64,000 nucleotides of DNA from an uncultured virus (IMG/VR IMGVR_UViG_3300002072_000002) (IMGVR_UViG_3300002072_000002), one strand, 5' to 3'; shown: positions 18,230 to 48,384, numbered from the stretch's first letter. Program-made: numbers and translations. The notes: generated by a model not told the origin, from the letters alone.

Positions 18230-18381
18230 CGGTTGCCTCCTACTTCGCGCCCTTGTGGGAATCGACCGCATTTTTGAATATGTAACCGCAGAAATACGAC
18301 CAGCTATCCATCTGCTTCTTCGGCGATACTTTGACTGGCTGTTTTGCAGATGCCTTTTGGGTTGTGGCCATGCGATCTTCC

Positions 18382-27237: not shown

Positions 27238-27243
27238 CTCTAC

Positions 27244-27299
27244 AATATACCTCCTGGTCGCTACAATGTCAATACCTTTCGGTGGGGTATTATTCCCCA
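27244..27299 (-). promoter_or_regulatory. Promoter with upstream GGGG-N7-CCCC box (copy 1)
   Basis: TGGGGAATAATACCCC-N7-GGTA-TTGACA-N17-TATATT, 6 nt before the tnpB GTG. Confidence 0.8.
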
Positions 27300-30476: not shown

Positions 30477-30806
30477 ATGAAGAAGTCGGCGCAGGCTTCC
30501 CTGTTTCGGCANGGCGAACACTTCTGCCCCAATGACGGCGAAGTGCTACTCATCCAAGATGGTTGGTTGTTCTGCTATCGCTGCCACTATATGCGATGCC
30601 GCGGTTGCGGATTGCCCATTCCGCCGCGAACAGAGGTAACGATGGCGCAATTATCCGGGCAGGAGCCTTATCCTCCGGCGCCCGATGGCTACTGCGAACA
30701 ACCGTTCGGCAAAGCGTGCTACGGTCGGATCGTTGACCGGCTCGAAGCAGAGAACACTCGGCTGCGAATCCAGTTGAAGCGAAAGCGGAATCGGGGGCGA
30801 GCATGA
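30477..30806 (+). CDS. Cys-rich hypothetical protein
   Basis: CPND, CYRC and CRGCG motifs; overlapping start/stop with neighbours. Confidence 0.55.
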   Translation: MKKSAQASLFRXGEHFCPNDGEVLLIQDGWLFCYRCHYMRCRGCGLPIPPRTEVTMAQLSGQEPYPPAPDGYCEQPFGKACYGRIVDRLEAENTRLRIQLKRKRNRGRA

Positions 30807-31633
30807 TCGAACCCTGGTGGGCGAGCCAAGATGGGCGGGTTGTTCTGTATTGTGGAAAGTGCGAGGATGTACTGCCGACGTTCGAGCCGGGGTCAATCGC
30901 GCTCACGGTGACGAGTCCCCCTTACGACCAACTTCGTACGTATCAAGGGTTCGAGTGGGACTTCGAGGCGACGGCGCGGGAACTATTCCGCGTAACGTGC
31001 GAGGGCGGCTTGGTTGTGTGGAATGTCGGCGACTCGGTTGTCGATGGCTCCGAAACGCTCACGAGCTTTCGGCAGGCAATCTACTTCAAGGACGCATGCG
31101 GCTTCCGCGTTCACGATACGATGATATATGAGAAGGCGGGATTTTCCATACCATCAACCGATCGCTACCAACAGGCTTTTGAGTACGTGTTTGTGCTGGC
31201 AAAAGGCAAACCCACGACGTTCAACCCGATAGTGGACAAGCGCAATATCCGGGCCGGCCTGCCGGGTAGCTTCGGTAAATGCACAAAACGGCAGCCGGAC
31301 GGGAGCCAGAGTGAGCGCGCTNGCGCGCTCACTGCCGAGTTTGGTAAGCGGTTAAACGTGTGGCGGGGCAAAACAGCCGGGCAGGAGAATCCCTGTCAGT
31401 CCATAGAGCATCCTGCCACAATGCCCTACTGGTTAGCTCGCGATCACATTCGCTCGTGGAGCAATGAGGGTGACGTCATCCTAGACCCGATGGCGGGTAG
31501 TGGCACGACTTTGGAGGCCGCGATACGTTGCGGCAGGAATGCGGTGGGAATCGAAATCTCACGCGAGTATGCAGATCAGATCGTTGAGCGAATGAAGAAA
31601 CTACTCGCGCAACCTACACTGGAGATGATATGA
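30803..31633 (+). CDS. N4/N6 DNA methyltransferase (SPPY, probably N4-C)
   Basis: VTSPPY, HPATMP and ILDPMAGSGTT...GIE motifs. Confidence 0.92.
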   Translation: MIEPWWASQDGRVVLYCGKCEDVLPTFEPGSIALTVTSPPYDQLRTYQGFEWDFEATARELFRVTCEGGLVVWNVGDSVVDGSETLTSFRQAIYFKDACGFRVHDTMIYEKAGFSIPSTDRYQQAFEYVFVLAKGKPTTFNPIVDKRNIRAGLPGSFGKCTKRQPDGSQSERAXALTAEFGKRLNVWRGKTAGQENPCQSIEHPATMPYWLARDHIRSWSNEGDVILDPMAGSGTTLEAAIRCGRNAVGIEISREYADQIVERMKKLLAQPTLEMI

Positions 31634-32238: not shown

Positions 32239-32419
32239 TTGACAAGCGAATTGGCATATAGTAGGATAGCCGTGCGAGACTAGGAGTTCACCGATGCAGG
32301 AAGCAATCTTCGATCAATACGCCACCATTCCCATCACCAACGGCGACGGTATAGTGCCCACTCCACTGCTTGTACTCCTGGTCTCGCAATCAGGCTCGCT
32401 TGCTTGGGGTGGACACTAT
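32239..32419 (+). promoter_or_regulatory. Primase promoter and structured leader with antisense-type pairing
   Basis: TTGACA-N17-TAGGAT. 32273-32287 is complementary to 32374-32388, which lies inside the stem 32351-32419. Confidence 0.7.
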
Positions 32420-32439
32420 TGCGTTACTGGGGGTGCCCG

Positions 32440-34929
32440 ATGAATGAGGTCTATGCTGCAGCAAAAGCCTACATCGATGCCGGGCTCTCGGTTATCCCGA
32501 TCGCGCTCGACGGCACGAAGCAACCGAAATCTTCGGTTTTGCCGCTCCAGAACGAGAGTTTGCCGCGCAGTGACAAGAACAGGCCCACGTGGAAACCGTT
32601 CGCAGAGCGTTTAGCGACCGACGACGAACTGCACAAATGGTTTGACTCGGGACAAGCGGCCATCGCCATAGTTGGCGGGTCTGTATCCGGCAACCTGGAG
32701 CGCATTGACTTCGATCAGCCCGGGATATACGACGAATGGCTCGCGCTTTGCATCGCCTGCCAGTGCAGCGAACTCGTGGACGACCTGGTCGGGGTCCGCA
32801 CCCCACGCGATCCGTCGTGCTACCATCTCTACTACCGATGCGACGAGCCGGTCCAGACATCGCAGAAGCTCGCGCTCGTCGCCGATGGGGTCAACGAAGC
32901 CGGCAAGCCGAATATCAAGGGCGCCATCGAAACGCGAGGCGAGGCGGGCTACACGGTCGCGCCCGGTTCCCCGTTGTCTGTCCACGAGACCGGCGTCCCT
33001 TACGAGGTTGTCTTCGGCGATCTGCTGGCGATACCCACCATCACGGCATACCAGCGCGAATGCCTGCTAGAATTGGGCAGATCATTCAATGAGGTCGCAC
33101 CCGAGATCAAGCCGCCTGCCGCGGCGAAAGCCGCAACCGCAACCGGCAAACCCGGCGCGGACTACATTGCGCGCGGTCCGTGGCGCGAACTGCTTGAAAC
33201 CGCCGGCTGGAAGATGGTATCGAGCCGCGGAGACGAAGAATGCTGGAGGCGACCGGGCAAGACCGAGGGATTGTCTGCCACATACAACCACCTCGGCACC
33301 GGCATGTTCAAGGTCTTCACCTCCAGCGCCTACCCGTTCGAGATGGGCGGCAACTACTCGGCGTTCGGAATCTACACGATGCTCGAGCACGACGGCGACT
33401 ACACCGCAGCTGCCCGAGCGCTCGCGAAACTCGGCTACGGCGAGCAACGGCAACGCGACCCCGCCGCGGTCTCCAATACCCCAGAAGGCGACGATGCTCC
33501 CATCCCAGACGCGGCCCCATCCGACCCCGACGTGCGCCGCGCGTTATCCGACATGGGCAACTCCGAGCGGCTCATAGACTCCTACGGAACAGAGATCCGC
33601 TACGTCGTCGATTGGAAACGCTGGATAATCTGGGACGGGGTCCGGTGGGCGACCGACTCCGACCTCCGAATCAACCGCTACGCTCGCGAGGTTGTCCGCA
33701 AGATCTATGCCGAGGCATCGGCCGCGCCCGAGGACATGCGTAAGGCAGTCGCAAAATGGGCTCTAGCGTCCGAATCCGAACGCGCCGTAGCAGCCATGGT
33801 GCACATGGCCCAATGCACAGTCGCCATCACCTCCGAGGCGCTCGACTCCGATCCCAACCTACTCTGCTGCCTAAACGGAGTTGTCGATCTCCAAAAGGGC
33901 GAACTGCTCAAGCCGATCCGCGAGAATCTCATCACCAAGCAGGTCCCTGTCCGATACGACGCCGAAGCACCCTGGCCGATTTGGGACGCATTTCTCGCCC
34001 GAACCCAGCCCGAAGATGACATGCGCGCCTACCTACAAGCCGCTGTTGGCTACTCGCTGACCGGCGATGTCTCCGAGCAATGCCTCTTCTTCCTCTATGG
34101 CGAAGGAAAGAACGGCAAAACAACTTTCATCGAAACGATCTCCCTGCTCGTCGGGGAATACTTCACCAAAACCGGCTCGGACTCGCTCATGATCAAGCGA
34201 TATGGCGGGAACACCGGTCACGAAGTCGCAGCCCTAAAATCCGCAAGACTCGTCACCGTCTCCGAAATATCCGATGGCCAGCAACTCGACGAGGGGCTCG
34301 TCAAGGATATGACCGGCGGCGACACGATGACCGCCCGACACCTCTACGGAGACCCGTTCAACTTCAAGGCCGGATTCAAGCTCTGGCTCTACGGCAACGT
34401 CAAGCCCAAAATCAAAGGCAAGGAAGAAGGCATCTGGCGCCGAATCAAAATGATCCCGTTCAACGTCTGCATCCCGCCCGACCAAAGAGACGCGCACCTC
34501 GCAGACAAGCTCAAAGGAGAACTCTCCGGCATACTCAACTGGGCGATCGCCGGCTGCCTCGACTGGAGAGCAAACGGACTGCCCGAGCCCCAGCAAATGC
34601 TCGATGCCGTCAATAAATACCGGTCCGAACAAGACGCGCTCGCGGGATTCATCGCCGACACCTGCATCATCGACCGATCACCGTCCAGCCGAGTCACCAA
34701 AAAAGCACTCTGGGAGGCTTACCAACAATACATCGCTACCAGCGGAGAGCCCGGATACGAAAGCAATCGCGCGTTCTTCAAGGAAATCGATCGCATACCC
34801 GGAGCCGTCGGCGGCAGAGGCACAGGACACGTCGCCATCTGGACTGGCATCAGGCTAATTGACGCAGATACACCCCAAGACACGATGCTGCCGATCGACG
34901 CAGAAGACCAAGGCAACCCCTGGCCATAG
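32440..34929 (+). CDS. Prim-Pol (AEP) + D5/P4-type SF3 primase-helicase
   Basis: IDFD, HLYY and ETRGEAGY (Prim-Pol); D5_N (DMGNSERL, WDGVRW); Walker A GEGKNGKTT; GIWRR. Confidence 0.93.
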   Translation: MNEVYAAAKAYIDAGLSVIPIALDGTKQPKSSVLPLQNESLPRSDKNRPTWKPFAERLATDDELHKWFDSGQAAIAIVGGSVSGNLERIDFDQPGIYDEWLALCIACQCSELVDDLVGVRTPRDPSCYHLYYRCDEPVQTSQKLALVADGVNEAGKPNIKGAIETRGEAGYTVAPGSPLSVHETGVPYEVVFGDLLAIPTITAYQRECLLELGRSFNEVAPEIKPPAAAKAATATGKPGADYIARGPWRELLETAGWKMVSSRGDEECWRRPGKTEGLSATYNHLGTGMFKVFTSSAYPFEMGGNYSAFGIYTMLEHDGDYTAAARALAKLGYGEQRQRDPAAVSNTPEGDDAPIPDAAPSDPDVRRALSDMGNSERLIDSYGTEIRYVVDWKRWIIWDGVRWATDSDLRINRYAREVVRKIYAEASAAPEDMRKAVAKWALASESERAVAAMVHMAQCTVAITSEALDSDPNLLCCLNGVVDLQKGELLKPIRENLITKQVPVRYDAEAPWPIWDAFLARTQPEDDMRAYLQAAVGYSLTGDVSEQCLFFLYGEGKNGKTTFIETISLLVGEYFTKTGSDSLMIKRYGGNTGHEVAALKSARLVTVSEISDGQQLDEGLVKDMTGGDTMTARHLYGDPFNFKAGFKLWLYGNVKPKIKGKEEGIWRRIKMIPFNVCIPPDQRDAHLADKLKGELSGILNWAIAGCLDWRANGLPEPQQMLDAVNKYRSEQDALAGFIADTCIIDRSPSSRVTKKALWEAYQQYIATSGEPGYESNRAFFKEIDRIPGAVGGRGTGHVAIWTGIRLIDADTPQDTMLPIDAEDQGNPWP

Positions 34930-36200
34930 GTGAACAACCTGTGACCGAGGCACCGCCCCGAAAGCACACCAATCCAGCCGAAACACCAGCTTTTTAGAAA
35001 TCCAAGAAAGTGCCGAATGGCACAGAAAGAAATTACGGTAACTCGGTAACTCTGTTTTACTCTCAAAAGTTACCGGCGAACAGGATTTGCATGACTTTTG
35101 TACTAGTGTTCTCTNATGTAGTTACTTTACTGCAAAATGAGTAACTATGGTAACTCAGTAACTCCGTCATCAAAAGCGCGATATTAGACATAAAATGTGC
35201 AGGATAACCCCGGAAACACTGATCCACCCCGCAACCAACCACACGTGCAAGACAACCCGCAACCAGACCGGTAAACCCCACAATACCCACACCACACACC
35301 AAATCACCAACCACAATAATATCCAAGCGAGACGCCAACCCGGAAATAACCCAGAATAAAGATGCCCACCAGGAAGGGTAGCCCACGTCAACTCGTGAAC
35401 GGGCATGGGATGTGCCCCAGGCTGGTAGATGGGCACGGGCCCGGGGTTGATCACTCTCGATCCGTGTTTATGATCGGTGATAACAGGGATTATAGCGTAT
35501 CACACAACTAGTGAACAACAGAGCCTGCTGGTACGCACGCATGTGGCAAACCGGGTGTAACTACGTCTGGCAGGGCAGAGGAAGGGTGGCGTCGAATCTA
35601 ATACGCTTTACCTGGCATTTGCATTACGGTTCTATCCCCCACTCTTTCGCATTCCCCTTGTCCTTTGTCTGTTGTTACAAGACTGTTACACTACTGTTGT
35701 CTGGTTGTTACATCGGTCTGTTGGGCGCATTGCATTGCGTGTATGGGTATATAGTCGGTCGCCTATAGAGTGGGGGGGCGTATAGCTCTCTGGCTATATA
35801 GCGATCAGGCCCGGTTGTCGTCAACTGTCAGTGAACACTGGGGCATGCTCTGTCCACTACTGGTGAACGACAGGGTGATCGGGTCTTGTTCACTATCTCT
35901 GAACAACAGCGCTGGTGTGGTGTTCACTGCTTGTGAACGTGTTGTTGTCAACTGTTGGCGAACAGACGGGTGGCGCGTTCACGGCTAGTGAACAATGGGA
36001 TGTGTATTGTTGTCCACAGGTAGTGAACAATGGGACGGTTGTGCACATATGCACATGTGCAATATGGCCTACAATGCGCCTGTGTGTTGATTATGGGCGT
36101 ATGTATGCGTATATGACTCTGTATACCTCTTTTGTCTGAGATGCGGGTTAACGGCGAATTCGTGCTTAGGATTGGGCGCAATGGGGGTATGTATGCGTAT
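34930..36200. repeat. Non-coding iteron-rich region (putative replication origin or genome end)
   Basis: GTAACT/AGTTAC x7 (35037-35164), AC-rich tract 35220-35360, TGTTAC x3 (35673-35712), GTGAAC/GTTCAC x~10, and direct repeat AGTGAACAATGGGA (35987, 36022). Confidence 0.65.
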
Positions 36201-36278: not shown

Positions 36279-36328
36279 GCCGATAGTGAGATTAGAGATC
36301 GCCGGCAAATCCGGCAAGGAGTAGGATC

Positions 36329-36865
36329 ATGGAGCAGAGTATAGACTACGGAATGGGACTGGCAAACGTTGACTCTAAGACTGGTATCAGGTATGGGGTC
36401 ATCTCGCAGCACAGTGTATCAGGCGATGCGCTAAATGACATGGATTACGATTATCCTTTGGGTTGCCCAGACTGCGGGAGTGATGCGCTAGTGGCGTCAA
36501 AGTCTACACGGTTTGACTTCTATTGCCAGTCTTGCAAGACATGGCACATGTCAGATTCTTGCTATGGGGATGAGGTAACCGGGTTCCACCTGGAGGACGG
36601 GGAATATACCCTGGTAGACTGTCTTGACTCTGACATCATGGTGATTCGTTCTCCATACTACACGTTCGCGCAGTACTGTTCCCCATGTGTCCCTGGGGCC
36701 NGGAATCTTGACAGTCCCATGCCAGACGGCGCCAAGGCGTACTGCCTGGGGTTAGACTGGTTTGACGACTACTCGTCCTGTCCTTATACCATCTACCGGG
36801 TATCGGATGATTCCGTAGTCGGCGAAGTCACGGGCTCATCCGAGCAGGAAAGAGGGGGGATATAG
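36329..36865 (+). CDS. Early hypothetical protein (Cys/Asp-rich)
   Basis: AGGAG RBS; first ORF after the early promoter; TGIRYGVIS and CSPCVPGA motifs. Confidence 0.7.
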   Translation: MEQSIDYGMGLANVDSKTGIRYGVISQHSVSGDALNDMDYDYPLGCPDCGSDALVASKSTRFDFYCQSCKTWHMSDSCYGDEVTGFHLEDGEYTLVDCLDSDIMVIRSPYYTFAQYCSPCVPGAXNLDSPMPDGAKAYCLGLDWFDDYSSCPYTIYRVSDDSVVGEVTGSSEQERGGI

Positions 36866-37143
36866 CCATGAGTCATTATGTAGGGGGACCGACAAACGAG
36901 AGATTGAAGAAGCGGATCACGGACGGTTATGGGATACGGTCGCTGGTAGCGTTTGACCGTGATACTCAGACGGTGCATCCTCATCACTCGTACACGTTTG
37001 CGACGATAAAGGAGCTGCGGACTACGCTTGCGCAGCTTGAGTATTATCCACTACGGAAGGCTTGAGCTTTTGCCTTCGCCGGTAGACTGCCAAATACCGG
37101 CATGGGCAAGTGCTTAGGCAGTACTTGAGAAGGAAGTGGAATC

Positions 37144-37362
37144 ATGGAGCGAATTGACAAGGACCTATACGAAACAAAGGAAGTGCCGTTGTACTGCCAT
37201 ATACATGGCTTGATGCAGACTGCGTCGGGTTACGGCGGCAAGTTGGCCACCAGCACCATGCTGAAGTACGAAAACCGTTGGCATCGGGTTTATTGCATGT
37301 GCTATTCCAACAATGGCACGTGCTATATCCTCGTGCATGGGAAGATGGTCGTGGTCTGGTAG
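37144..37362 (+). CDS. Early hypothetical protein
   Basis: QTASGYGGKLAT...WHRVYCMCYSNNGTCY. Confidence 0.65.
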   Translation: MERIDKDLYETKEVPLYCHIHGLMQTASGYGGKLATSTMLKYENRWHRVYCMCYSNNGTCYILVHGKMVVVW

Positions 37363-38132
37363 TTAGGCGCTTAGTGGTTAGGCGCGCGGCCTTCTCGACT
37401 TCTTCTCGATTCATATGCTGGAGGGATTATCATGGGGCGTGCTAAGATCGACATGGGGTTCCGGGTTACGACGACAATGGGGATGTACCCATTTATGGAG
37501 GACCTGGCGAAGGATGGTCCGGCGTTTTGTCCGGGGATGGTTGGTGAAGTGGTGGCTTTGCGTGAGAAGTACGTGGTGGTGGGATATATGGTTGACGGGT
37601 TGGCCTACCGGGTTGGCCTACAGCACAGCATGGTTAGACTTGCGCAAGTGTAGAGGCTTGACGGTTCCTGCCTTCGGGCAGGTTCCGTGAGGTCTCAACA
37701 AGAGGTCTCGGGAAGAAGGATAGAATCATGAACGGTTTGGAATTGCGGAGAAGGATCAAGACGGCGCGCCGGCAAGGCGATAGCGCTGCAGTCCGGCAGT
37801 TGAGCCGGCAGTTGAGCCGGTTAGATCGGCGGGTATCGGCATGATCGAGTACGTTCTGTGGGCGCACAAGCCCGAAGACCCGGAAGGGCATGAGTCTTTG
37901 ATCATGAAAGAAAACACAAGCCTAGCGAGTTTGGCGGCGGCGAAGGCATGGGCAATATCCGAAGGCTTTATTGGCCTTCGGGTCCAGACTTTTGACGGTT
38001 ACGAAGTGCCAGACTTCATCGGTGCGATTGCGGGGCTTTGACATGGCTAGCGACATGTGTTTTCGGTTATCACTTCTCGTTGTCGTGGCGCTCATTGTAG
38101 TGCTACAGGATAGGTTAGGGAGGTAACGAATC

Positions 38133-39590
38133 ATGAAGCGCACTAAGGTTATGTTCCGCAAGGATTGGAATGNGGATGTGTACGCACTGTTTCCCGAGAT
38201 CGCCGCTACTGTTGGCAATCCCGCGCATTGTCTATCCTACCAACACATAGGACAGCATTGTGCGGCTGATTATCAGTTGTGCATCCGCGCAAGCAAACCG
38301 GCGAAGTCGGCCGAGTACGCCGAGCTATTCGCCGAATTGACAACCATCGGCTACAGTTTGGAGGTTATCCAGCGCGCGACTGCGGGGATGTATCGGCAGC
38401 GCGAGGCTGAGGCAGTCGCGTTAGACGTGCCGGAGTTAGGCGCGAGCGTGGACGCAAAAACATTCCGCGATGCTGTCCACCAAGTTGGCGCGGCGGTGAG
38501 TTCCCGTAACTCTTTGCCGATACTTGGGCATGTCCTTATCGAGCCGGTCTGCGGCGGAATCAAGCTGACCGCCACTGACTTGGAGCTCGGCGCGAGCGTG
38601 ACAATCCACGCGCTGACAGAGAACTTCGAGCCCTGCACTGTTCCGGCGCGGCTGCTGGCTGATGCGCTGAAGGGCGCGAGTGGCTGTGTGTCGATTCGCA
38701 ATGAAGGTGACGACGTTAGGCTGACCATCGGCGGGTCCGAACAAGTTTTGAAAGGCATCATGGCCGCTGAGTTCCCACAGTTAGCGGAGGTCGAAGTCAA
38801 AACCTGGGTGAAGTTCCCCGGCCTTGCCGGAATACTCAAGCGCCTCATGCCTGCCGTGTCGGATGACGAATACCGGCGGGCCATATTGACCGGCATCTTG
38901 ATCGACGGCAAGAACATCGTTTCGACCGACACGAACCGGCTGTTCGTTTACGAGCACGGCATGGACTTGACCGACCTGCACACATGGCCGCAGGTTACGC
39001 CGGAAGTCGAAGCCGTTCCGGGCGGAAGGTCTGGCATCGTCATCCCCGGCACTACCTGCGACAAACTCATGCGGATGTTAGGCTGCAAGCCAGACGCTGA
39101 AGTCGAGATCGGCTGCTCAGACACGCAAGTGATTTTCAAGGTCGGCGATTCGGTTGTTAGGTCGCGGCTGATCGAGGGCATGTTCCCGAATTATGAGCGG
39201 GTTATCCCCGACGAAGCGGCGCTGACCGGCGCGATAGAAGTAATCCCCGGCGATATGGCAGAAGCGCTCAAGAAAGTCTGGCCGGTCGCTCGGGAGAATA
39301 GCGGCAGGGCGCTCTTCACGGTTGAGGAAAACGATCTGCTGAAGCTCTCTGCTTCTTCGAGCTCATGCGGAGAAGTGTCGGCAATGATAGACGGCTGTAG
39401 AATCACCGGGTTCCCCATCGGCTTTCAGTTCGCCATGTCCTGCAACTATCTGGCCGATGCAGTGGCAGTGTTCAAGAATAGCGAATTGGTGACACTATCG
39501 GGCTCGGGCGCGGTGAACCAGTTCACGGTGACTTCGCGGCAGGACCCGGACATGCTGGTAGTGGTCATGCCGATGCAGATCGGGTACTGA
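38133..39590 (+). CDS. dnaN: DNA polymerase III beta sliding clamp with an extra ~100 aa N-terminal domain
   Basis: LPILGHVLI, LTATDLE, STDTNRL, SRLIEGMFPNYERVIP and VVMPMQI motifs, preceded by KVMFRK...ALFP...SYQHIGQH. Confidence 0.9.
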   Translation: MKRTKVMFRKDWNXDVYALFPEIAATVGNPAHCLSYQHIGQHCAADYQLCIRASKPAKSAEYAELFAELTTIGYSLEVIQRATAGMYRQREAEAVALDVPELGASVDAKTFRDAVHQVGAAVSSRNSLPILGHVLIEPVCGGIKLTATDLELGASVTIHALTENFEPCTVPARLLADALKGASGCVSIRNEGDDVRLTIGGSEQVLKGIMAAEFPQLAEVEVKTWVKFPGLAGILKRLMPAVSDDEYRRAILTGILIDGKNIVSTDTNRLFVYEHGMDLTDLHTWPQVTPEVEAVPGGRSGIVIPGTTCDKLMRMLGCKPDAEVEIGCSDTQVIFKVGDSVVRSRLIEGMFPNYERVIPDEAALTGAIEVIPGDMAEALKKVWPVARENSGRALFTVEENDLLKLSASSSSCGEVSAMIDGCRITGFPIGFQFAMSCNYLADAVAVFKNSELVTLSGSGAVNQFTVTSRQDPDMLVVVMPMQIGY

Positions 39591-39715
39591 GGTTAGACGT
39601 TAGGGGCTTGCCCGGAGGCTTATTTCGGGCGAGCCATGATTATGTTAAGCAAACAACGCGCTGTAGCGAGATTCTGAGCGCGTGACAGCCGAAAGGCATA
39701 GCTAAGGAGGTCATC

Positions 39716-42700
39716 ATGGGCACGATTCGAGTATTCGATNACGACGAAACGAAGGGCGGTCTGACTTACTCAGACGCGGAGGGCAGGGTGCCGCCGATAG
39801 TTCACAAGGGATGGACTTGGGGAGAGACTTTTGAGGAAGCGCGTCATGCTTCAGCCGTTCGTAAAGTGCGGATGTACGCGTTCCTATCCTGGACAGGCTT
39901 CTTCGGGATATGCCAGGAGGGGAATCTGACAATCGGCGATTGTGCGTGGGCGGCATTCGAGTACGGGCATCAGGTATCTGACCAGCGAAGTGCGCGAGCT
40001 TGCCAATATCCCACAAGCAAAGAGATATGGGGACTGGCGTATGCCCCTGTGCTTCCGAGGTTAGAATCATGATCACGCACGGTTATAAGATCGAAATGGC
40101 GGAAGAGGGAAACGACCNGGTGGGCGCACTGCGCGACCTGGTATGGCAATTGGAGAATCCGATGGACTGCCGGGGCGGCAGAACGCTACTCGATGATCTG
40201 CAAGACGGCTTGGAGCGGATCGTCAACTGTGCGGCGCTTCACGAGCGGGGCGTGGACATTCGGATAGTTCGGACAAGGACGGAGGGCTGACATGCGCGGA
40301 TGGACACTTGCGGATCATGCCGAGTGCTGGTGGGCGGGTAGCAATCAGATCATGCCGGCACGCGGCACAACGGCTTGGACTATGATGTATGAGCAGTGGG
40401 CGGAGTGGGCGTTCTCCGACNTTCGCGGGAAGGAGTCTTGACATGACGAAGAGCACGGATAGAGTTAGGTTGGGCAGCGGCGAGGTTATGACTCTTGGGG
40501 AAGCGTTAGACAAGGGCTTGCTGGAGGTGCGGATCGTGGAACACTTCTGCGGACCTCGCGGCGGGTGCGGAATCGCCTACTTCGCGGACGAACCGGGCAC
40601 TATGAGCGGTTTCCGAATCAGCCNATTCCTGTACCGCAGTCGCATGGGCTTGCCGGTTCGGATATACCTCGGCGGGAATGAGGTATGCCTTGACAATCAC
40701 AGTTAGGGGCAAGAGGGTCGAGTTGACCGAGGGACCTTACCAGGTCACATGGACAAACAGATCGGGGGCTAGACCCTGGGCAGTCATGGACGGTCACGGC
40801 GCAATGGTTAGGCAACCGCCTGCTGACAATATGCACAAGGCGCTTTTCTTCCAGACGAATGTGAAAGCGCACGAGTTCGCGATATGCATGAACGACAGGG
40901 AGGGGTGGCAACCATGCTCTTAGGGTTGGGCATCGGGTTAGGCATGTTGGCATTCTGCACCGGCGTTGTGTTCGTAAACGCGGCGGTCGATACGCTGCGG
41001 GAAAGGTTAGGGATATGACACTCGGAATACTCTACACGTTCGGAAGCGCTGAGGCCGACCGCTCATTTGGTACTGACCTGTGGCTGCTGATGGTAGCGGC
41101 TGTGATTGTGACGTTCGGCGGTCGGTGGCTCATACGAAAGTTCATGGGGTGGTTCTGATGACTGATTCTGAGATCGGGTGCGTTGGCAGATGGCGCAACC
41201 ATCACCCAGACGACAAGCACACTGACGCGGAGGTTTTGGATTATCTCCGGCGATGCGATGCGAGAACAGCAGAGCTTATGGATTTGCACTTCCCGTACTA
41301 CATCAAGAACGGGCGGCGCGTTAAAACAGACAGGGGTGCATCATGCTGACAGCACACCACAACCTCGTGAAGCACGGCACTTTGCCGGAATCCCGGCGCC
41401 AAGCGTTAGTCAACAAGCCGTTCGCAGTTCGAGACAGAGCGTTAGGCGCAAAAGTGGAGGCAGTCGCCTTCGGCTACAAAGAACTGACGCCGATCATCGA
41501 GATCGACGGCCGCAAATATCGCGGCATGACCTGGATAGAAGTGAGCGCGGCAGTTGAGCGCGGGGCAGTGCCGGAGTTGGCACGGCTGGAAAGGGTTAGG
41601 TGTTAGATCATGAAGTACTTGGTTTTGGAGGCGCACGACACCGACCAAACGCAAACGAGCGAGGTCAACCGTTTCGCAGTTGAGTTAGGTCTGGTGCCGA
41701 TTGACGAACTGATCGCGCAGGCGGCGAATATCCGCCCGATCTTTGATGACAAGACCNGCGTACTGAAGTCCGGTTGTATGCAGTTCGACTGGCACGAGGG
41801 CGAGTGGCTGGCTTCTGCTTCGATAGAGGAGCTTGACGGGCCGATGATCGCCGAGGATTCGACGGAGGACGGCAACTATTCATGGGGCAAACTCGAAGTC
41901 GCGGGCGGTCACATCCTGCTCTGGTGGGAGGGCGACACCGCGACAATCGAGTTCCGCGCCTACCTGGAATGCGGGATCGAATACTTCTCCGGCGCAGTGT
42001 CGCTNGATTGGTTGGTAGAGCAGGTGGCGGCATGAGGGACGTTACGGTAAAACAAGTGTTGGCTGCCGAGGAGCGGGCACGCGTCGGCGACTTGGAGCAA
42101 ATGTGTGCAACGTGCTGTGCGCGGATAGCTAGATACCCAGTGCTCATGTGTGCAGTAAGTGTAGCGATTGGCGACGACGAGAGGATACTTGCGGGTGTAA
42201 GTCTGGCGCTCGAATTGCTCGAATGCGCCAACCCGCCGCTCGGTATCGGCGCGGAAACCGAGGTTCCGAAGTGACGAAGGATCTTAAACGTTATCGGCGG
42301 CGGCTGTTAGGCTGCTGCACAACACGTTCGCAGATGATGCGCCTGATTCGCAGGCAGGTTAGGTTCGCGCTCAGATNGGCGCAGGAAGTAGAGGTATAAT
42401 CATGAAACGCGGTTGGAGGTTAGAGATCGAATCAACGAAGGATACAGCAACGGTTCTGCGAGCGATTGCAGACGACATGGACGGCAAGGACGTGTCTTTC
42501 GACGCGGCATATACATTCTCCCCCAACGTGGAACTGAGCGATCAACTCAGCGGCGTTAGGCCGGGGAGCGTTACGCCGAATCAGCCAGACGCTACCGATC
42601 TTCTGGCATCGGCGCATGAGGTCGTTTGCCACTGGACAGACGGCGGTTGTTCCGAGGCGATGGGCGGGTTGATAAACGCAGTGCAGGATTATGAGTCGGC

Positions 42701-43366
42701 ACAGGACGAACCGGCTGCCGTCACGCCCATCGTCACGCCGAACCTGGTTGACGCGGCGCGGCGAATGCTGGATGACTACCAGACCGGGCGGCCAGAGCAC
42801 AAATCTGCACTGTGGCTTGAGTCNGTGCTGGAAGACTACGAAGACGCGACAACCGCTCCCGGCCCGATCATCGTCGAGGTTAGCGGCGGGAATGTTCAGG
42901 ACGTTAGGGACATACCCAGTGGCGTCACCGTCGAGGTCCGCGACTACGACAACGGCGAAGAAGCGACCGAGGAAGAGCGTGCGGACATGGGGCAGGACGC
43001 CGACGGGAAGTTCTACAGCGTTGGCGAGTGGAGTTGATCATGAGCATGAAGATCGGTTCAATCGAAACCAACTATGGCGAGGCGGAGATTCTTGCCTGCC
43101 ACTACGGCGGACCCGACGGCCCAACCGCAGTTAGACTGGACCTAACCGACGGCGAGATATTCGGCGTACTGACGGTAAACTTGCCGGACAAAGAGCATTT
43201 GCTTGGGCGCGGCGAAGTGTTCGTCAAAACGTGGTCCGAGAATGCCNGGTGGGTGGCGAAAGTGCTTGCGACTGGACTGTTCGAGGATACCGGCAAGCGA
43301 GTGCCGACCGGCTTCGTTGAAGCTCAGATATGGCGGTTCGTGACTCCGCCGGGGTGGGCGGCATGA
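39716..43366 (+). other. Cluster of ~10 small early hypothetical ORFs (e.g. 39716-40072, 40678-40923, 41343-41606, 41610-42035, 42402-43037, 43040-43366)
   Basis: Tandem co-oriented short ORFs with RBSs and overlapping start/stop codons. Confidence 0.6.
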
Positions 43367-44013
43367 TCTACGCGCTCATTCTCGTTTCCGCGTGGATGCA
43401 GTGCGCCTACACCGTCTACAATGCCAAGTTTCAAGGCCGTACCACTGCCTCCGGCGCGATCTTCTCGCACTCGGGCAGGCTGGTTGCTTGCCGCGAAGGG
43501 CGGTTAGGCAGCCGCGTGGAACTGAGATACCGCAACACGCGCGGCGGCTGGACAACGAGCAGGGGTATCATCGGGGATCGAGGCCGACTGCCTTTGCATC
43601 GGGCGGACTGTTGGCAGTTCGATCTCAGCCAGAAGATCGCCCGAGAGTTAGGGCTTTACAGGTTAGAAAACGGCAAGACCGTTAGGGACGGGCAGTTTCG
43701 GATACTGCCCGGGAAAGGATGGAATGATGCAGCAATCGGCAATTCGGATCTTGACGCCGCGACACAACGGCTTTATCGACAGTTGGCTCCAGAGCCTAAG
43801 CAAACACACCAGAACAGCCTACAGCAGCGACATAGCGGCATTCTGGCTATGGTTTGNGGCAGAGGATGTTTCCCTGGTGACACGGGAGGACTGTCACCGC
43901 TGGTTAGGCTCCTTGAAAGCGACCGACCTGCGGCCAGCGTCGATCAACCGAAAGCTCGCCGCAGTTCGCGGGATGCTGGTCGAAGCAGTTCGGTATGGCA
44001 TCCGGCCCGATAA
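43363..44013 (+). CDS. RlpA-like double-psi beta-barrel (lytic transglycosylase-like) protein
   Basis: Hydrophobic N-terminus, FQGRTTASG, LGSRVEL, DRG and DLSQKIARELG motifs. The conserved part ends ~43710; the rest overlaps the recombinase gene. Confidence 0.7.
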   Translation: MIYALILVSAWMQCAYTVYNAKFQGRTTASGAIFSHSGRLVACREGRLGSRVELRYRNTRGGWTTSRGIIGDRGRLPLHRADCWQFDLSQKIARELGLYRLENGKTVRDGQFRILPGKGWNDAAIGNSDLDAATQRLYRQLAPEPKQTHQNSLQQRHSGILAMVXGRGCFPGDTGGLSPLVRLLESDRPAASVDQPKARRSSRDAGRSSSVWHPAR

Positions 44014-44629
44014 CCNGTTCGTCGGCATCAAGGGCTTCAAGGCGAGCGGCATATCGACGCGGACGAACGTGCNGACAGTAGATCAGGTTGTCGCATTGAT
44101 GGGCTCCATCGGCAACGAAACGCTGATCGACGTTAGGGACCGGGCCGTTATCTACCTGGCCGGCGGGTTAGGTATGCGAAGGGAGGAGATCGTGGACGTG
44201 ACGTTGGACTCCTTGCAGCAGACGCAGGGAAAGACGGTCTTGACCATTGTGGGCAAGGGCAGCAAGACTCGCCGGAATGCGCTGGACCCGAATCCTAACT
44301 TGCTTGATGCGGTTAGGCAGTGGATTGCTCGGGGTCGAATCCGACCCGGTGCGGCGCTGATTCAGGGCGTGGTCCACGGCAAGGCGAACGGTCGGGCTCT
44401 GCATCCGTCGAGTATCTACGCGATCATCGACAAGCGATTGGCGGCGGCGGGGCTCGCAGGTTTCCACCCGCACTCATTTCGCGGGTTCTTTATCACTGAG
44501 GCTCTCAAGGAGTGCGACATATACAAGGTTCAACGCGCGGTCGGCCATAGCGATCCGCGAACAACTCAGGGCTACGATCAGGCCCGCGACGACGTTGAGG
44601 ATAGTGCTTCGGGATATGTGAGGATATAG
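43724..44629 (+). CDS. Tyrosine recombinase/integrase (XerC/D-like)
   Basis: Catalytic R (GMRREE), K (GKG), HSFR, GH and Y (TTQGY). Confidence 0.92.
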   Translation: MMQQSAIRILTPRHNGFIDSWLQSLSKHTRTAYSSDIAAFWLWFXAEDVSLVTREDCHRWLGSLKATDLRPASINRKLAAVRGMLVEAVRYGIRPDNXFVGIKGFKASGISTRTNVXTVDQVVALMGSIGNETLIDVRDRAVIYLAGGLGMRREEIVDVTLDSLQQTQGKTVLTIVGKGSKTRRNALDPNPNLLDAVRQWIARGRIRPGAALIQGVVHGKANGRALHPSSIYAIIDKRLAAAGLAGFHPHSFRGFFITEALKECDIYKVQRAVGHSDPRTTQGYDQARDDVEDSASGYVRI

Positions 44630-45139: not shown

Positions 45140-45687
45140 ATATGTTCAACTGGCAAATGACACGACTCTACTTTCGGGGCAACTGGTACAAGGCCAAGCG
45201 CAGCGAAGCGTTCACCAACGGAGACGCTTATTACGTTAGCTACGACGGCGGCGTGGCTCCAAATCGCGACAACTGGGAGATCGACACTGATCCGATTGCC
45301 CTCGCGCCAGAGGGAGAGCTGTTTGATGGGCAGATAGCGTACGTATTTCCCGAAGGAGGGCAGCACTTGAAGATGAAAACACTTGCGATAGAGCACGTGA
45401 TTGAAGCGTTGGAAGAACCACGAACCCATAATGTTGGCTTGAGCGATAGGGCACTGGCCGCGATCTGCGATCCNGCTTTCCTCGCCGAACTCAAGCAGGC
45501 GGCGGCAGACGCGCGACTGAGGCGGATGGTGGAGGAGCGACACCGCAAAGAACTCAGCCCAGGAGAGATCGGCGGTTGGTGGGTACGCGTCCTTGTTGGA
45601 TTTGATAGCTTTATGCAGGCAGGCGCAACGCTCGACGACGCCCTCGAATCGGCTTACAATGCGGCGGGGATCGAGGTATCCGAATGA
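45136..45687 (+). CDS. Hypothetical protein
   Basis: ATGA overlap with the upstream ORF. Confidence 0.55.
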   Translation: MNMFNWQMTRLYFRGNWYKAKRSEAFTNGDAYYVSYDGGVAPNRDNWEIDTDPIALAPEGELFDGQIAYVFPEGGQHLKMKTLAIEHVIEALEEPRTHNVGLSDRALAAICDXAFLAELKQAAADARLRRMVEERHRKELSPGEIGGWWVRVLVGFDSFMQAGATLDDALESAYNAAGIEVSE

Positions 45688-46693
45688 AGATGAAAGCAGA
45701 CGCGCAGGAGAAGCTGGAGGCGGCGAAGTGCTGTAGGAATTGTTACTACCGAGCACCCAAACCCTATCAGGGTGTGCCATATCGTTGGAGGTGCTTGGAG
45801 CCACATACGCCGTCGAACTATCCCATAGTGGTTCACGGCAACGATAGTTGTCAGCATTGGCGGAAGAGAACGCCCGCCCTCGCGGAGACAGCGGAGGAGG
45901 CGAGAGTATGATGAGCAAGATAGAGCGAGTGCCGATCACAGAGAAAAACAGTCGCACATCCTGCCCGCGATGGAGCGATCTGGACTTCGATTCTGAGTCT
46001 GTGCGGATGGATAACGGCTATCTGCATGTGCCGGTGCATCATTCTTGCGACCCGAACGACGTTATGTGGCGCGTGTTTCCGAAGTCGAAGCACGCCAAGG
46101 GCGTAGCCAAGGAAGCCGACGGCACGTGGGTCTGGATAATAGTGACGAAAGGACGGCAGATAACATGACAAGCAATTGGATGGCATCGACAAGTAGGCGA
46201 AGGAAGAAGCGGGGAGCGAAGCGCACGGACAGGCTGCACATCAACTTCGCAGTGTATTCCGCCAAGTTCCAGGCAGGAATGCGACGGGCGGCGAGTGCGG
46301 CCAGCAGGTTCGGCGATGCTCTTGCCAAGGCCGTAAAGAGCAGCAGGGAGGATTCATGAGAGACACCAACAACCTGCCGATGAATGGAAAGCGGTCTGCA
46401 CTGGATTGGACAAAGCATTACGTCAGGCGTTGTGGAACCTGCACGCATTACGATGGTGGTATCATGGGCAACTGCATCGAGCAACCAGAATTAGGCTTCA
46501 GGCAGTATTGTGATCTCTGCGAACGGTATGAGGCATGTCCAGAATATGCCTCGCGGATTGCAGTTCTCGACTGCGGGACAAGGATGTATCCGAAATACGT
46601 GACCGTAGACACCGGGCAGGATATCACAATCGGACATTACTCGCCTTTCCACGATAGGGCGATCAGAATGTTAGCAACCGGCAAGGAGGATTC

Positions 46694-47080
46694 ATGACAA
46701 CGCAAACACCAAGGCGCGGGGTCGGCAGGCCGAAAGGCAGCGTCGTCGAAACGCGACCGTATCAAGTGGAACTCGACACAGATCTGGTCAAGAAGTTCCG
46801 CGCCCGGGGCGATGATCTCTCCGACGGCATCCGAACGTTAGGCGCGCGGCATTTCGCCTTGCTCGCAGAGGGTCGAGCGCAGTTGCGCCGGCTCCTGAAA
46901 GACAACATCGAGCGAAAGAAGCTCGTGACGATCTACCGCAACGGCGGCGAAGACGCTTTACGTAGGGCGTCTATGCGGTTCACGGAGTTCCAGAAGGCTG
47001 CCTTACTGGATTGCATCGAGCGGTTCTGCGCGGCCCAGGACAAGGACGTTGACGTGCCGCTCGATGTGCTTTTGAAGTAG
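46694..47080 (+). CDS. Putative DNA-binding protein (AT-hook-like GRPKG)
   Basis: RRGVGRPKG followed by an RHH-like segment. Confidence 0.5.
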   Translation: MTTQTPRRGVGRPKGSVVETRPYQVELDTDLVKKFRARGDDLSDGIRTLGARHFALLAEGRAQLRRLLKDNIERKKLVTIYRNGGEDALRRASMRFTEFQKAALLDCIERFCAAQDKDVDVPLDVLLK

Positions 47081-47138
47081 TGGGGAGAAATACCCCGCTC
47101 TAGGGTATTGACAGGCAAGCATGGGCTTGTGGTAAGAT
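47081..47138 (+). promoter_or_regulatory. Middle promoter with GGGG-N7-CCCC box (copy 4)
   Basis: TGGGGAGAAATACCCC-N7-GGTA-TTGACA-N19(TGG)-TAAGAT. Confidence 0.75.
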
Positions 47139-47182
47139 ACGGGAGTTAGATATATGCACATACGCACGGAGGTTCATCTGCA

Positions 47183-47347
47183 ATGGCATCGAACAAAGAT
47201 AAAAACATGAAACCGCACAACATCAATATGCACAACGATCTGTGGAAGCGGCTGAAGACAACGGCGAAGCGCGGGTCTGTGTCGGTTGCGGATGTCGTGA
47301 GGGACGCCTGCGAGGCTTTGCTGGAGCGGATGGCGCCGCCCGAATGA
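47183..47347 (+). CDS. Ribbon-helix-helix (CopG/Arc-like) regulator, 54 aa, missing from the ORF track
   Basis: GGAGG RBS; MASNKDKNMKPHNINMHNDLWKRLKTTAKRGSVSVADVVRDACEALLERMAPPE. Confidence 0.7.
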   Translation: MASNKDKNMKPHNINMHNDLWKRLKTTAKRGSVSVADVVRDACEALLERMAPPE

Positions 47348-47971
47348 GAGACGTGGAGGATGGGGCCATCGTAGATGCACTGAATCCCGATAAGATTGCG
47401 GAGCACGCCGAAGGTCTAATGGCGCGATACCCCATATTCTTCAAGGAAATGAGTCACTTAGTTTTCGCGAACGCAAAAACAAAAGAGAACGAGCAAGAGA
47501 TGTTCCTCCTGTTCATTACTGGGCTGGCCGCATTGGAAAAGGCGAATCCGCCGATGGATATGCCGTCCGGCGGGCTGGGCGAGCCGCCGCAATGAAGGCC
47601 GGACTCAGGGTTATCGGAGCCTGTGCGGAAACTCTGCGACGAGCAGAAGATGAAGAAGGAGGTAGATGATGACCAAAAAGAAACAGACGAAACTTAGACT
47701 CGGACGGCTTGTGAACGTGACAGAGAAACCGTTCACCAAAGAGGAAAAGAAGAAGATGTGCGACGGCGGGGTCAACCNGGACTACTTTGGCAGATATGCG
47801 GGAACGGTGGTTCCTGTGGACGAGGAGGCTGATGATGATCGACCGATGGGTTTGCAGATACTTTGTCGCCGAGCCGCATGATGGGACGGCGATCCAACTA
47901 CTGATCTGCGCGATCGTGATAGTGGCGGGGCTGGCGATGAGGCTGTCGATGCCGCAGGCGGCGAGGCTGCC

Positions 47972-48199
47972 ATGACGACGCACCATGACGAGTTCGCATT
48001 CCAGCAGGTCATGGATATAAACGGCAGGATGGCAGTGTCAGGCGGCTTGACCAAGCGCGAGTATTTCGCGGCGATGGCGATGCAGGGGATACTTTCGGGA
48101 TCCGCGATGAGTGCGATGCTCGATCCCCTTGCGCTATGCGACAACTCGGTCAATATCGCAGACTGGCTGATCGCCGCGCTGAACAAGGAGGCATCATGA
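47972..48199 (+). CDS. Conserved small phage protein
   Basis: GLTKREYFAAMAMQGIL...IADWLIAAL motif. Confidence 0.7.
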   Translation: MTTHHDEFAFQQVMDINGRMAVSGGLTKREYFAAMAMQGILSGSAMSAMLDPLALCDNSVNIADWLIAALNKEAS

Positions 48200-48384
48200 G
48201 CAAGCCGAACACATGGGCAGAGCAAGACATCGAGGTTGTTTTTGTAGGCGTCGGTCCCCCGCCCGCTCTGTATGCATGGAACTGGGCGGGCATTCGGCTG
48301 AGAATCAAGATAATCCATACATNGGTTCGGTCGAAGCACCGAGTTCCTTTACGGCAACTCTTCAAGATCATCAAGTGATTCACT

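What the first reader, a model, noticed from the sequence alone, without database searches (positions are those of the whole stretch)
36751..44316. Early region saturated with one-strand GTTAG motifs
SEEN: by manual count, ~41 GTTAG (usually [G/C/A]GTTAG[G/A]) lie on the + strand in 7.6 kb, e.g. 36751, 37362, 37377, 38114, 38420, 38435, 39592, 39599, 40464, 41595, 41602, 43647, 43662, 43681, 44132, 44167, 44312. Only ~2 occur in the opposite orientation there. About 7 more tail off to 50.4 kb, and only a handful occur on + elsewhere. Base composition predicts roughly 7. The motifs sit in all frames inside unrelated genes (clamp, RlpA-like, recombinase) and in spacers, and often force rare TTA/AGG codons, so the selection is on the nucleic acid. 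The block begins just right of the putative origin/genome end. INFERENCE, three hypotheses: (a) a polar DNA mark for a phage protein that coats, protects or translocates first-entering DNA; (b) priming sites for the Prim-Pol primase (the origin repeats share the GTTA core); (c) GUUAG sites that let a sequence-specific RNase or RNA-binding protein shut down early mRNAs, analogous to T4 RegB acting on GGAG. I know of no described system that explains this.
Basis: partly seen in the sequence, partly recalled or inferred. Interest (0 to 1): 0.8.

Follow-up and report, generated by a model that had tools for sequence, protein, structure and literature searches.

The report
One-strand GTTAG array beside phage origin
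An uncultured peat phage has packed about fifty copies of the rare five-letter word GTTAG onto one strand of its first early genes, next to its replication origin, and what reads this signal is still unknown.

Summary
GTTAG occurs 41 times on + and 2 on - in 36751-44316, with 8 more on + out to 50345 and only 6 elsewhere on +. Genes of the same orientation predict 2.6. None of 1000 amino-acid-preserving shuffles reaches 41. In the block, 32 of 122 synonymously writable sites carry the word, against 4 of 211 in late genes. The word is really GTTAGR.

In a candidate host-clade genome it is among the rarest 5-mers, so it is not a host Chi- or KOPS-type word.

The block starts 0.7 kb right of a P4-type iteron origin (TGTTCAC repeats). 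That origin lies behind a Prim-Pol/SF3-helicase gene whose fold matches the sequence-specific primases of pRN1 and NrS-1. GTTA-core repeats follow the primase gene here, in the closest relative, and in NrS-1, where the published primase word TTTGGTTA sits in that cluster.

Best reading (about 0.3): template words for the phage's own Prim-Pol on the displaced strand. Main rival (about 0.25): a GUUAG tag on early mRNA.

The parts
32404..34929 (+). Prim-Pol (AEP) + D5_N + SF3 helicase gene: the replication initiator and the candidate reader of the word
   Evidence: Pfam PF09250 E 1e-14, PF08706 E 8e-33, PF19263. PHROG DNA primase E 7e-132. The N-terminal model (pLDDT 89) matches pRN1 ORF904 (1rni, E 2.6e-10) and NrS-1 (6a9w, E 6e-4). 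The helicase part matches 7ola.
35038..35711 (.). GTTAC/GTAAC repeats just behind the primase gene. Five AGTTAC units on the - strand at 35038-35162, then three TGTTACA on + at 35674-35711.
   Evidence: 11 GTTAC/GTAAC lie in 0.7 kb. The window holds 38 + 33 in 64 kb, so about 0.8 would be expected. Sequence read.
35511..36029 (.). Iteron origin: TGTTCAC/GTGAACA repeats, many as inverted pairs
   Evidence: 7 of the window's 18 TGTTCAC lie in 34930-36029, and 0 of 100 shuffles reach 18. Repeat families. The heptamer equals the annotated 'ori type 1 repeat' of phage P4.
36233..36278 (+). Sigma-70-like promoter(s) facing the early operon
   Evidence: TTTACG-18-TATAAT scores 10 of 12. TTGACA and TATACT were read. 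These are consensus matches only.
36329..43366 (+). Early ORFan operon whose genes share the start context ATCATG. It includes the beta-clamp gene 38133-39590.
   Evidence: 11 gene starts with ATCATG lie between 36329 and 43040. ATCATG occurs 15 times against 2.2 expected. Clamp Pfam hits. The other ORFs have no family in Pfam, NCBIfam or PADLOC; PHROGs gives only unnamed or weak hits for three of them.
36751..44316 (+). Dense GTTAGR array: 41 copies on +, 2 on -, about 5.4 per kb
43724..44629 (+). Xer-like tyrosine recombinase gene. The dense array ends inside it.
   Evidence: PF00589 E 6e-18 and PF02899. NCBIfam XerC and XerD hits fall below cut-off.
45235..50349 (+). Sparse tail of the array: 8 copies on +, about 1.3 per kb. 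No + copies follow up to 59.8 kb.
   Evidence: Occupancy is 7 of 62 writable sites. A change point at 50.4 kb adds 7.5 log-likelihood units.

Best explanation
GTTAGR is a strand-specific word read on single-stranded DNA by the phage's own replication initiator. That initiator is the Prim-Pol/SF3-helicase encoded at 32404-34929.

Proposed course. The protein binds the TGTTCAC iterons at 35.5-36.0 kb. Its helicase leaves rightward on the - strand, because SF3 helicases move 3' to 5'. This displaces the + strand. Early rightward transcription, over the most G-skewed stretch of the window, also exposes the + strand as the non-template strand. The Prim-Pol domain recognises GTTAGR on that exposed strand and starts primers there. 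The first 8-14 kb right of the origin therefore act as a dense priming and initiation zone. Because the word is almost absent from host-like DNA and from the rest of the phage, it works as a private address.

Shown: the array, its strand, its selection against coding cost, the origin beside it, the Prim-Pol fold, and the GTTA-core clusters behind three Prim-Pol-helicase genes.

Inferred: that the Prim-Pol reads GTTAGR, that priming happens there, and why the zone is so long.
For: (1) Strict one-strand use (41:2) of a 5-6 nt word, imposed on proteins and spacers alike. V-[RS] dipeptides are twice as frequent in the block.
(2) The array starts 0.7 kb right of a P4-type iteron origin.
(3) The neighbouring gene is a Prim-Pol of the pRN1/NrS-1 fold. 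These enzymes use short template words: pRN1 GTG, NrS-1 TTTGGTTA and GTG, both bound by a helix-bundle domain (PMC8718748, passages read).
(4) In NrS-1 the one exact TTTGGTTA lies inside 10 GGTTA(CAC) repeats at 17061-17614, right after the primase gene.
(5) In a test of 160 loci for GTTA-core excess in the 1.5 kb after the primase gene, the top locus is the closest available relative, L083: 21 against 4.8 expected, p 4e-8, with GGTTAAC and GGTTATC repeats. This phage scores 16 against 7.1. In all, 11 of 160 loci have p<0.01.
(6) GGTTAG makes up 19 of the 41 copies, and GGTTA occurs 30 times against 4.1 expected.
(7) GC skew of +0.20 at 36-38 kb is the highest in the window.
(8) The word ranks 9-15 lowest of 1024 5-mers in a candidate host-clade genome.
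Against: There is no mirror array. Only 5 GTTAG lie on the - strand in the 35 kb left of the origin, so general lagging-strand priming cannot depend on the word.

The closest relative (G403) and NrS-1 have only the local cluster and no extended array.

The origin-proximal repeats are GTTAC, and GTTAC is not enriched in the array: 6 against 4.6.

Those repeats could be double-strand iterons rather than primase words.

A helix-bundle domain was not resolved in the model; residues 238-330 are mixed alpha/beta.

The base 5' of the word is a purine in 30 of 49 copies. This is not what a purine-initiated primer at that position would predict.

The array is co-extensive with an mRNA-type signature, the ATCATG starts.

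Earlier notes of this scan (unchecked) report similar one-strand early-region arrays in other genomes; whether their replication genes differ was not checked.
Confidence: 0.3

Rival explanations
1. RNA tag. GUUAG on the early polycistronic mRNA is the target of a sequence-specific endoribonuclease or RNA-binding protein, of phage or host. That reader sets the lifetime or translation of early messages. It works like T4 RegB on GGAG or a MazF-type 5-mer RNase. The rarity of the word spares host and late mRNAs.
For: All copies are on the sense strand of a block of co-oriented genes behind a sigma-70-like promoter. The block is co-extensive with a translation-start signature, ATCATG at 11 starts. 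Occupancy falls along the operon: 26%, then 11%, then 0%. The word is rare in host-like DNA and in the late genes. Its length is typical of single-strand readers.
Against: No RNase or RNA-binding family was found in any ORF of the region. Predicted accessibility of GUUAG is 0.138. Controls give 0.098 (permuted words) and 0.152 (GC-matched words), which is inconclusive. No + strand terminator marks a transcript end at 44.4 or 50.4 kb.
Confidence: 0.25
2. Oriented double-strand DNA sites, working like stoperators. A repressor or silencing protein binds the asymmetric word along the early lytic operon and blocks elongating RNA polymerase in one orientation, keeping the operon shut in lysogeny.
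For: Cluster A mycobacteriophages carry 20-30 asymmetric repressor sites oriented with transcription that block elongation (PMC6550527, passages). The phage has a tyrosine recombinase, so it may be temperate. The sites are all oriented with transcription.
Against: The word has only 5-6 informative positions, whereas stoperators are remembered as 13 bp. 31 of 41 copies lie inside genes. No repressor was identified. The palindromic TGTTCAC sites already occupy the control region.
Confidence: 0.1
3. Chi-like or translocase-guiding array. The word, or its complement CTAAC, switches off a host helicase-nuclease that enters from a DNA end. That end could be an injected terminus or the tail of rolling-circle replication starting at the origin. 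The published analogue is the end-clustered Chi arrays of phages LLS and MD8.
For: Polar, end-clustered Chi arrays are published. LLS has 23 Chi, 20 in the active orientation. MD8 has 32 of 32 (PMC12315714, sections 6 and 15 read). The AddAB Chi word AGCGG appears with AddAB in the papers of a search listing (listing only). Density falls with distance from the origin.
Against: The word is depleted, not enriched, in candidate host-clade genomes. GTTAGG counts are 459+437, 256+264 and 364+389 per ~4 Mb, against 1310+1188, 900+1062 and 1155+1196 for the reversed control. Observed over expected is 0.16-0.21. The phage carries its own recombination genes: a RecE-like PD-(D/E)XK exonuclease, an SbcC-like ATPase, RusA and a RuvC-like protein. 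In the paper that class mostly lacks Chi. No DNA end is known near the block. The true host is not known.
Confidence: 0.07
4. One-strand DNA modification or nick sites. One of the phage's several DNA methyltransferases, or its HNH nuclease, acts at the non-palindromic word and marks or nicks only the + strand of the early block.
For: At least four methyltransferase genes are present: 28988-30367, 30803-31633, 24704-26047 and 10062-10676. There is also an HNH gene. Non-palindromic 5-6 nt words are typical of such enzymes (recalled). One-strand nicks in T5-like phages are also recalled.
Against: Nothing links any of these enzymes to this word. Modification targets are not usually enriched 15-fold or more over a local 8 kb.
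Confidence: 0.06
5. Imported module with a foreign oligonucleotide habit. The 36.3-44.4 kb block was acquired from a phage lineage where both GTTAG and ATCATG starts are common, and the word has no function in this genome.
For: Two independent signatures share nearly the same borders. Codon usage differs mildly from the rest of the phage.
Against: GC content is the same as the rest. Density is higher in spacers than in genes. The sparse tail blurs the border. No genome with such a habit was found: the triple-GTTAGG scan of viral contigs returned at least 121 stretches, and the 80 fetched loci were low-GC phages or tandem repeats.
Confidence: 0.05

Closest known systems
Template recognition words of Prim-Pol (AEP) primases: pRN1 ORF904 (GTG), phage NrS-1 polymerase (TTTGGTTA, GTG)
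   Same: Short words read on one strand of ssDNA. The enzyme fold is the same. A GGTTA core is shared with NrS-1. GTTA-core clusters lie just behind the primase gene in NrS-1, G403 and this phage.
   Different: Known words act at an origin or are common trinucleotides. No extended one-strand array of about 50 copies over 14 kb has been described. The word here ends in G, not C. Priming at the word has not been shown.
P4 alpha / SaPI PriRep origins (type 1 iterons TGTTCAC[C/A])
   Same: The same heptamer is clustered just downstream of the primase-helicase gene. The helicase part matches 7ola.
   Different: This accounts for the origin only, not for the GTTAG array. No second crr-like iteron cluster exists in the window. 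P4's primase domain is remembered as toprim-type, not Prim-Pol.
End-clustered polar Chi arrays of Rec-less lambdoid phages (LLS, MD8; PMC12315714)
   Same: Many copies of one short word, nearly all in one orientation, concentrated in one part of the genome and written into genes.
   Different: Those words are the host's Chi and are abundant in the host. Here the word is among the rarest in the candidate host clade. This phage has its own recombination genes. The density here is about 5 per kb, against about 0.5 per kb in LLS.
Stoperators of cluster A mycobacteriophages (PMC6550527)
   Same: Asymmetric sites oriented with transcription, 20-30 or more per genome.
   Different: Stoperators are longer specific sites, mostly between genes, spread over both arms, with a known repressor. 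Here the word is 5-6 nt, mostly inside genes, and confined to one block.
T4 RegB targets (GGAG in early mRNAs) and MazF-type 5-mer RNase sites (recalled)
   Same: Short sense-strand words that single out a temporal class of messages.
   Different: RegB sites are mainly Shine-Dalgarno sequences and are not forced into coding sequence. No nuclease candidate was found here.

Membership tests
Prim-Pol primase recognition sites | A Prim-Pol (AEP) enzyme encoded by the same replicon | tested here: met
   PF09250 E 1e-14. Model matches 1rni at E 2.6e-10 and 6a9w at E 6e-4.
Prim-Pol primase recognition sites | Short word read on one strand only | tested here: met
   41 on + and 2 on -. 5-6 informative positions.
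Prim-Pol primase recognition sites | Word related to an experimentally defined word of the family | tested here: inconclusive
   GGTTA is shared with NrS-1 TTTGGTTA. However, the origin-proximal repeats are GTTAC, and GTTAC is not enriched in the array.
Prim-Pol primase recognition sites | Sites on the lagging-strand template on both sides of the origin or genome-wide | tested here: not met
   Only 5 copies on the - strand in the 35 kb left of the origin. None on + after 50.4 kb.
Prim-Pol primase recognition sites | Primer synthesis starts at or next to the word | not testable with these tools
   Needs a primase assay or primer mapping.
Chi arrays | Word over-represented in the host chromosome | tested here: not met
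   Depleted in three candidate host-clade genomes. Observed over expected is 0.16-0.21 in 400 kb of G002. Host identity is inferred only from best protein hits.
Chi arrays | Phage lacks its own recombination module | tested here: not met
   RecE-like exonuclease, SbcC-like ATPase, RusA and RuvC-like protein are present.
Chi arrays | Orientation faces a DNA end | not testable with these tools
   Termini are unknown. Only contigs were available, with no raw reads.
Stoperators | Asymmetric sites oriented with transcription | tested here: met
Stoperators | Long specific site with a cognate repressor, mostly intergenic | tested here: not met
   No information beyond GTTAGR. 31 of 41 copies are in coding sequence. 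No repressor was found.
RegB-type RNase targets | Phage-encoded sequence-specific endoribonuclease | tested here: inconclusive
   No family hit in Pfam, PHROGs, NCBIfam or PADLOC. The ORFans remain unread.
RegB-type RNase targets | Cleavage of early mRNA at the word | not testable with these tools
   Needs 5'-end or 3'-end RNA-seq from infected cells.
KOPS / FtsK guides | Orientation flips at a dif-like site; word frequent in the host | tested here: not met
   No flip at or after the recombinase gene. The word is depleted in candidate hosts.

The most novel reading that the evidence does not exclude
The array is one instance of an undescribed class of phage cis-signals. These would be private, one-strand 'address words', chosen from the rarest words of the host. 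They saturate the early gene block and are read by a strand-tracking machine, at the DNA or RNA level, to set that block apart from host and late-phage nucleic acid. The class would be independent of host Chi. Earlier notes of this scan (unchecked) list similar early-region arrays with other words in other phages.
Probability: 0.4. Interest if true: 0.85.

Novelty: new variant of a known kind. Interest (0 to 1): 0.7.

Why it matters
The phage pays a real price for this word. It uses rare codons and doubles the frequency of Val-Arg/Ser pairs in order to write the word every ~185 bases on one strand of its first genes.

It would also be a natural substrate for working out how AEP primases choose templates.

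Either way, the array offers a direct handle, through pull-down with GTTAGG repeats, on phages of the little-known Armatimonadota and on a signal type that may recur in many uncultured phages.

Tried and rejected
Relatives. The clamp and the primase used as single queries found only the same phage. Profile scans found 80 + 80 + 80 loci, but none shares the early operon. The closest, G403, shares only the primase and a RuvC-like gene. The SbcC-like ATPase query gave one unrelated contig. phrog_3436 was not found in 401 genomes of the candidate host phylum, and the control rang nowhere.

GTTAG in the 160 other loci. No comparable cluster was found. A zero-order scan proved a poor null because codon-driven words score alike. 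GGACG excess in L169, L183 and L213 looks codon-driven.

Pattern scan of viral contigs. The triple-GTTAGG pattern returned at least 121 stretches. The 80 fetched loci were low-GC phages or tandem repeats, with no R preference after the word.

Mutational origin. No one-step neighbour of the word is depleted enough to be the source.

RNA structure. Accessibility is inconclusive. There are no tRNA genes and no Rfam family.

Sequencing runs. No RNA holder was listed. The contigs laid from 4 peat runs were nearly identical, with 1 SNP and no ends, joints or variants to use.

Other dead ends. The blastn search of phage records found no match. The Atlas look-up of the first early protein gave only small zinc-ribbon look-alikes at 0.90. 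Literature searches for GUUAG with endoribonuclease, and for one-strand pentanucleotides in phage early genes, found nothing relevant. Searching TGTTCACC in papers returned only primers, so the P4 record itself was used instead. The 179-kb metagenome contig that holds the phage could not be read beyond 22.5 kb, so prophage or free state is open.


Full report
WHAT THE WINDOW IS. The 64 kb are almost a whole siphovirus-type phage genome.

- Late genes run on the - strand from 28.1 kb down to 1. They include an HNH nuclease, small and large terminase, portal, a protease-capsid fusion, glycosyltransferases, connectors and the tape measure. Further - strand ORFs without family hits run from 64 kb down to 59.8 kb.
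- Early and middle genes run on the + strand from 28.6 to 59.8 kb. They include RusA, C5 and N6 methyltransferases, a Prim-Pol/D5_N/SF3-helicase, ORFans, a beta clamp, a Xer-like recombinase, an SbcC-like ATPase, a RecE-like PD-(D/E)XK exonuclease and a RuvC-like protein.
- The phage's primase is on record on a 66,657-base contig and on a 179,315-base metagenome contig. A 37.9-kb IMG/VR fragment is 99.9% identical.
- Four peat-metagenome runs hold half or more of the stretch's sampled words and a fifth holds 13%. The contigs of the four runs laid were almost clonal, with one SNP.
- The best hits of the clamp and the primase are Armatimonadota (Capsulimonas and relatives), so that phylum is the likely host. 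This is an inference.

THE OBSERVATION. GTTAG occurs 41 times on + and twice on - between 36751 and 44316. Eight more copies on + trail out to 50345. Only six other + copies exist in the window.

The window-wide total is ordinary: 64 against 56.9 in shuffles. What is abnormal is the placement and the strand.

- Same-orientation coding DNA of this phage predicts 2.6 copies for the block. The word is really GTTAGR, with GTTAGG 27 against 0.7 expected and GTTAGA 11 against 0.9. Flanks carry little information.
- Gaps between copies include six of 20 nt or less. My estimate for an exponential spacing is about four, so the copies look roughly randomly spaced.
- Inside genes only the two frames that avoid a stop codon are used.
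- Ten copies lie in 1.2 kb of spacer, twice the coding density.
- None of 1000 synonymous permutations (maximum 27), and none of 1000 resamplings from the phage's other codon usage (maximum 22), reaches 41.
- Of the sites where the protein sequence would allow the word, 32 of 122 carry it in 36.3-44.6 kb. The figures are 7 of 62 in 44.6-50.5 kb, 0 of 76 further right, 2 of 62 in the + strand genes left of the origin, and 4 of 211 in late genes. Val-Arg/Ser pairs are twice as common in the block.
- Likelihood change points fall at 36.7-37.3, 44.4 and 50.4 kb.
- No one-step neighbour of the word is depleted, so a mutational conversion does not explain the excess.
- As an empirical null, the same criteria were run over 89 loci of at least 16 kb around related primases. 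Only this phage's own locus stood out.

THE SURROUNDINGS. Directly behind the primase-helicase gene, which ends at 34929, lie four features in order.

- First come 11 GTTAC/GTAAC repeats at 35038-35711.
- Next come TGTTCAC/GTGAACA repeats, many as inverted pairs, at 35.5-36.03 kb. Seven of the window's 18 copies lie here, and no shuffle reaches 18.
- Then comes a sigma-70-like promoter at 36.23-36.28 kb.
- Last comes the early operon.

TGTTCAC(C/A) is exactly the annotated 'ori type 1 repeat' of phage P4. There it sits right after the alpha primase-helicase gene and in ori. The helicase half of the protein here matches chain 7ola.

Eleven early genes between 36329 and 43040 start in the context ATCATG. 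That context is almost absent elsewhere. It is a second signature with nearly the same borders as the array.

WHAT THE WORD IS NOT. In three candidate host-clade genomes GTTAGG is two to four times rarer than its reversed control, and it is strand-symmetric overall. In 400 kb of one of them, GTTAG and CTAAC rank 9th to 15th lowest of 1024 5-mers, at 0.13-0.16 per kb and observed over expected of 0.16-0.21. That equals the phage's own background outside the block.

A host Chi or KOPS word should be frequent, so this argues against those readings. So does the phage's own recombination gene set. In the published survey of polar, end-clustered Chi arrays, it is Rec-less phages that carry them (PMC12315714, abstract and sections 6 and 15). 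The caveat is that the true host is unknown.

The sites are too short and too often intragenic for stoperators (PMC6550527, passages). There is no orientation flip that would suit a dif-directed guide.

THE PRIMASE LEAD. An AlphaFold model of residues 13-369 (pLDDT 89) matches several Prim-Pol domains:

- pRN1 ORF904: 1rni at E 2.6e-10, plus 3m1m and 9aam.
- A CRISPR-associated Prim-Pol.
- Phage NrS-1: 6a9w at E 6e-4.

These enzymes start primers at short template words held by a helix-bundle domain. The words are GTG for pRN1, and TTTGGTTA and GTG for NrS-1. The authors suggest that TTTGGTTA fixes where NrS-1 replication starts (PMC8718748, passages).

I looked at the NrS-1 genome. Its only exact TTTGGTTA lies in a cluster of ten GGTTA(CAC) repeats at 17061-17614, immediately after the primase gene. 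Elsewhere in that genome GGTTA is under-represented.

I then tested 160 loci for GTTA-core excess in the 1.5 kb after the primase gene. The top locus is the closest available full-length relative, L083/G403: 21 against 4.8 expected, p 4e-8, with GGTTAAC and GGTTATC repeats. This phage has 16 against 7.1, and 11 of 160 loci have p<0.01.

GTTA-core words therefore recur at the origins of three phages with a Prim-Pol primase gene, and in one of them the word is a proven primase site. In the array, 19 of 41 copies read GGTTAG.

The array lies on the + strand. That strand is displaced when an SF3 helicase (3' to 5', established knowledge) leaves the origin rightward. It is also the non-template strand of the early operon, over the most G-skewed part of the window.

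WEAKNESSES OF THAT READING.

- There is no mirror array to the left.
- The two other phages have only the local cluster.
- The origin repeats end in C, and GTTAC is not enriched in the array.
- The helix-bundle domain was not resolved.
- The base 5' of the word is mostly a purine.
- The length of the zone remains unexplained.

The ATCATG signature and the fall of occupancy along the operon fit an RNA-level tag just as well. For that reading I could find neither a reader gene nor a structural signal. No RNA data were available.

Earlier notes of this scan are unchecked AI notes. They list one-strand early-region arrays with other words, including GTAAC, in other phages. If those hold, a more general mechanism than one primase family may be at work.

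VERDICT. It is not a host Chi or KOPS word, not a stoperator set in the known sense, and not a mutational or codon artefact.

- My best reading, at about 0.3, is a private template word of the phage's own Prim-Pol, forming a long priming zone beside the origin.
- An early-mRNA tag follows at about 0.25.
- The rest is spread over oriented double-strand sites, Chi-like protection, modification or nick sites, an imported module, and readers not yet imagined.

Noticed in passing
window, 60 single positions (e.g. 36701, 38173, 44016, 44073) and 29652-29653: All 26 N letters that could be compared are C or G in the 179-kb metagenome contig. Several sit beside short C or G runs. At 29652 the window lacks 3 bases (GGG) that the other contig has. 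This looks like base-calling ambiguity, not biology.
   Followed up: yes
window 36329-43040: Eleven early genes start in the fixed context (A)ATCATG behind a GGAGG-like site. The context is nearly absent from other gene starts of the phage.
   Followed up: partly
window 26116-27300 (-): A 394-aa transposase (phrog_506, E 2.5e-121) sits between the HNH gene and a methyltransferase gene, so an insertion-sequence-type element may lie inside the phage.
   Followed up: no
window 10062-15374 and 15449-18271 (-): Two or three glycosyltransferase genes and a methyltransferase-like gene lie among the head genes. A 940-aa ORF joins protease-like and major-capsid-like parts.
   Followed up: no
L243 2120-2205; L246 400-520 (candidate host-clade chromosome G002): Intergenic composite repeats hold 6-9 tandem copies of a 15-nt unit containing GGGTTAGG, next to hairpins whose loops read GTTA. 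Three pairs of the phage's GTTAG copies are also 15 nt apart. This may be chance.
   Followed up: partly
L395 (phage NrS-1) 17061-17614: The published primase recognition word TTTGGTTA occurs once in the genome. It lies inside ten GGTTACAC-type repeats directly after the primase gene, which is a likely origin.
   Followed up: yes
L083 5440-5670 (record G403): The closest available primase relative has GGTTAAC and GGTTATC repeats right after its primase gene, but it shares no early genes with this phage.
   Followed up: yes
window 43724-44629: The Xer-like recombinase gene has no spacer on either side for an attachment site. Whether the phage integrates, or uses the enzyme to resolve dimers, is open.
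   Followed up: no
window 36300-44015 in run X2: Contig depth is about 145 in one peat metagenome, and the four runs laid are almost identical in sequence. The phage was abundant and clonal there.
   Followed up: partly
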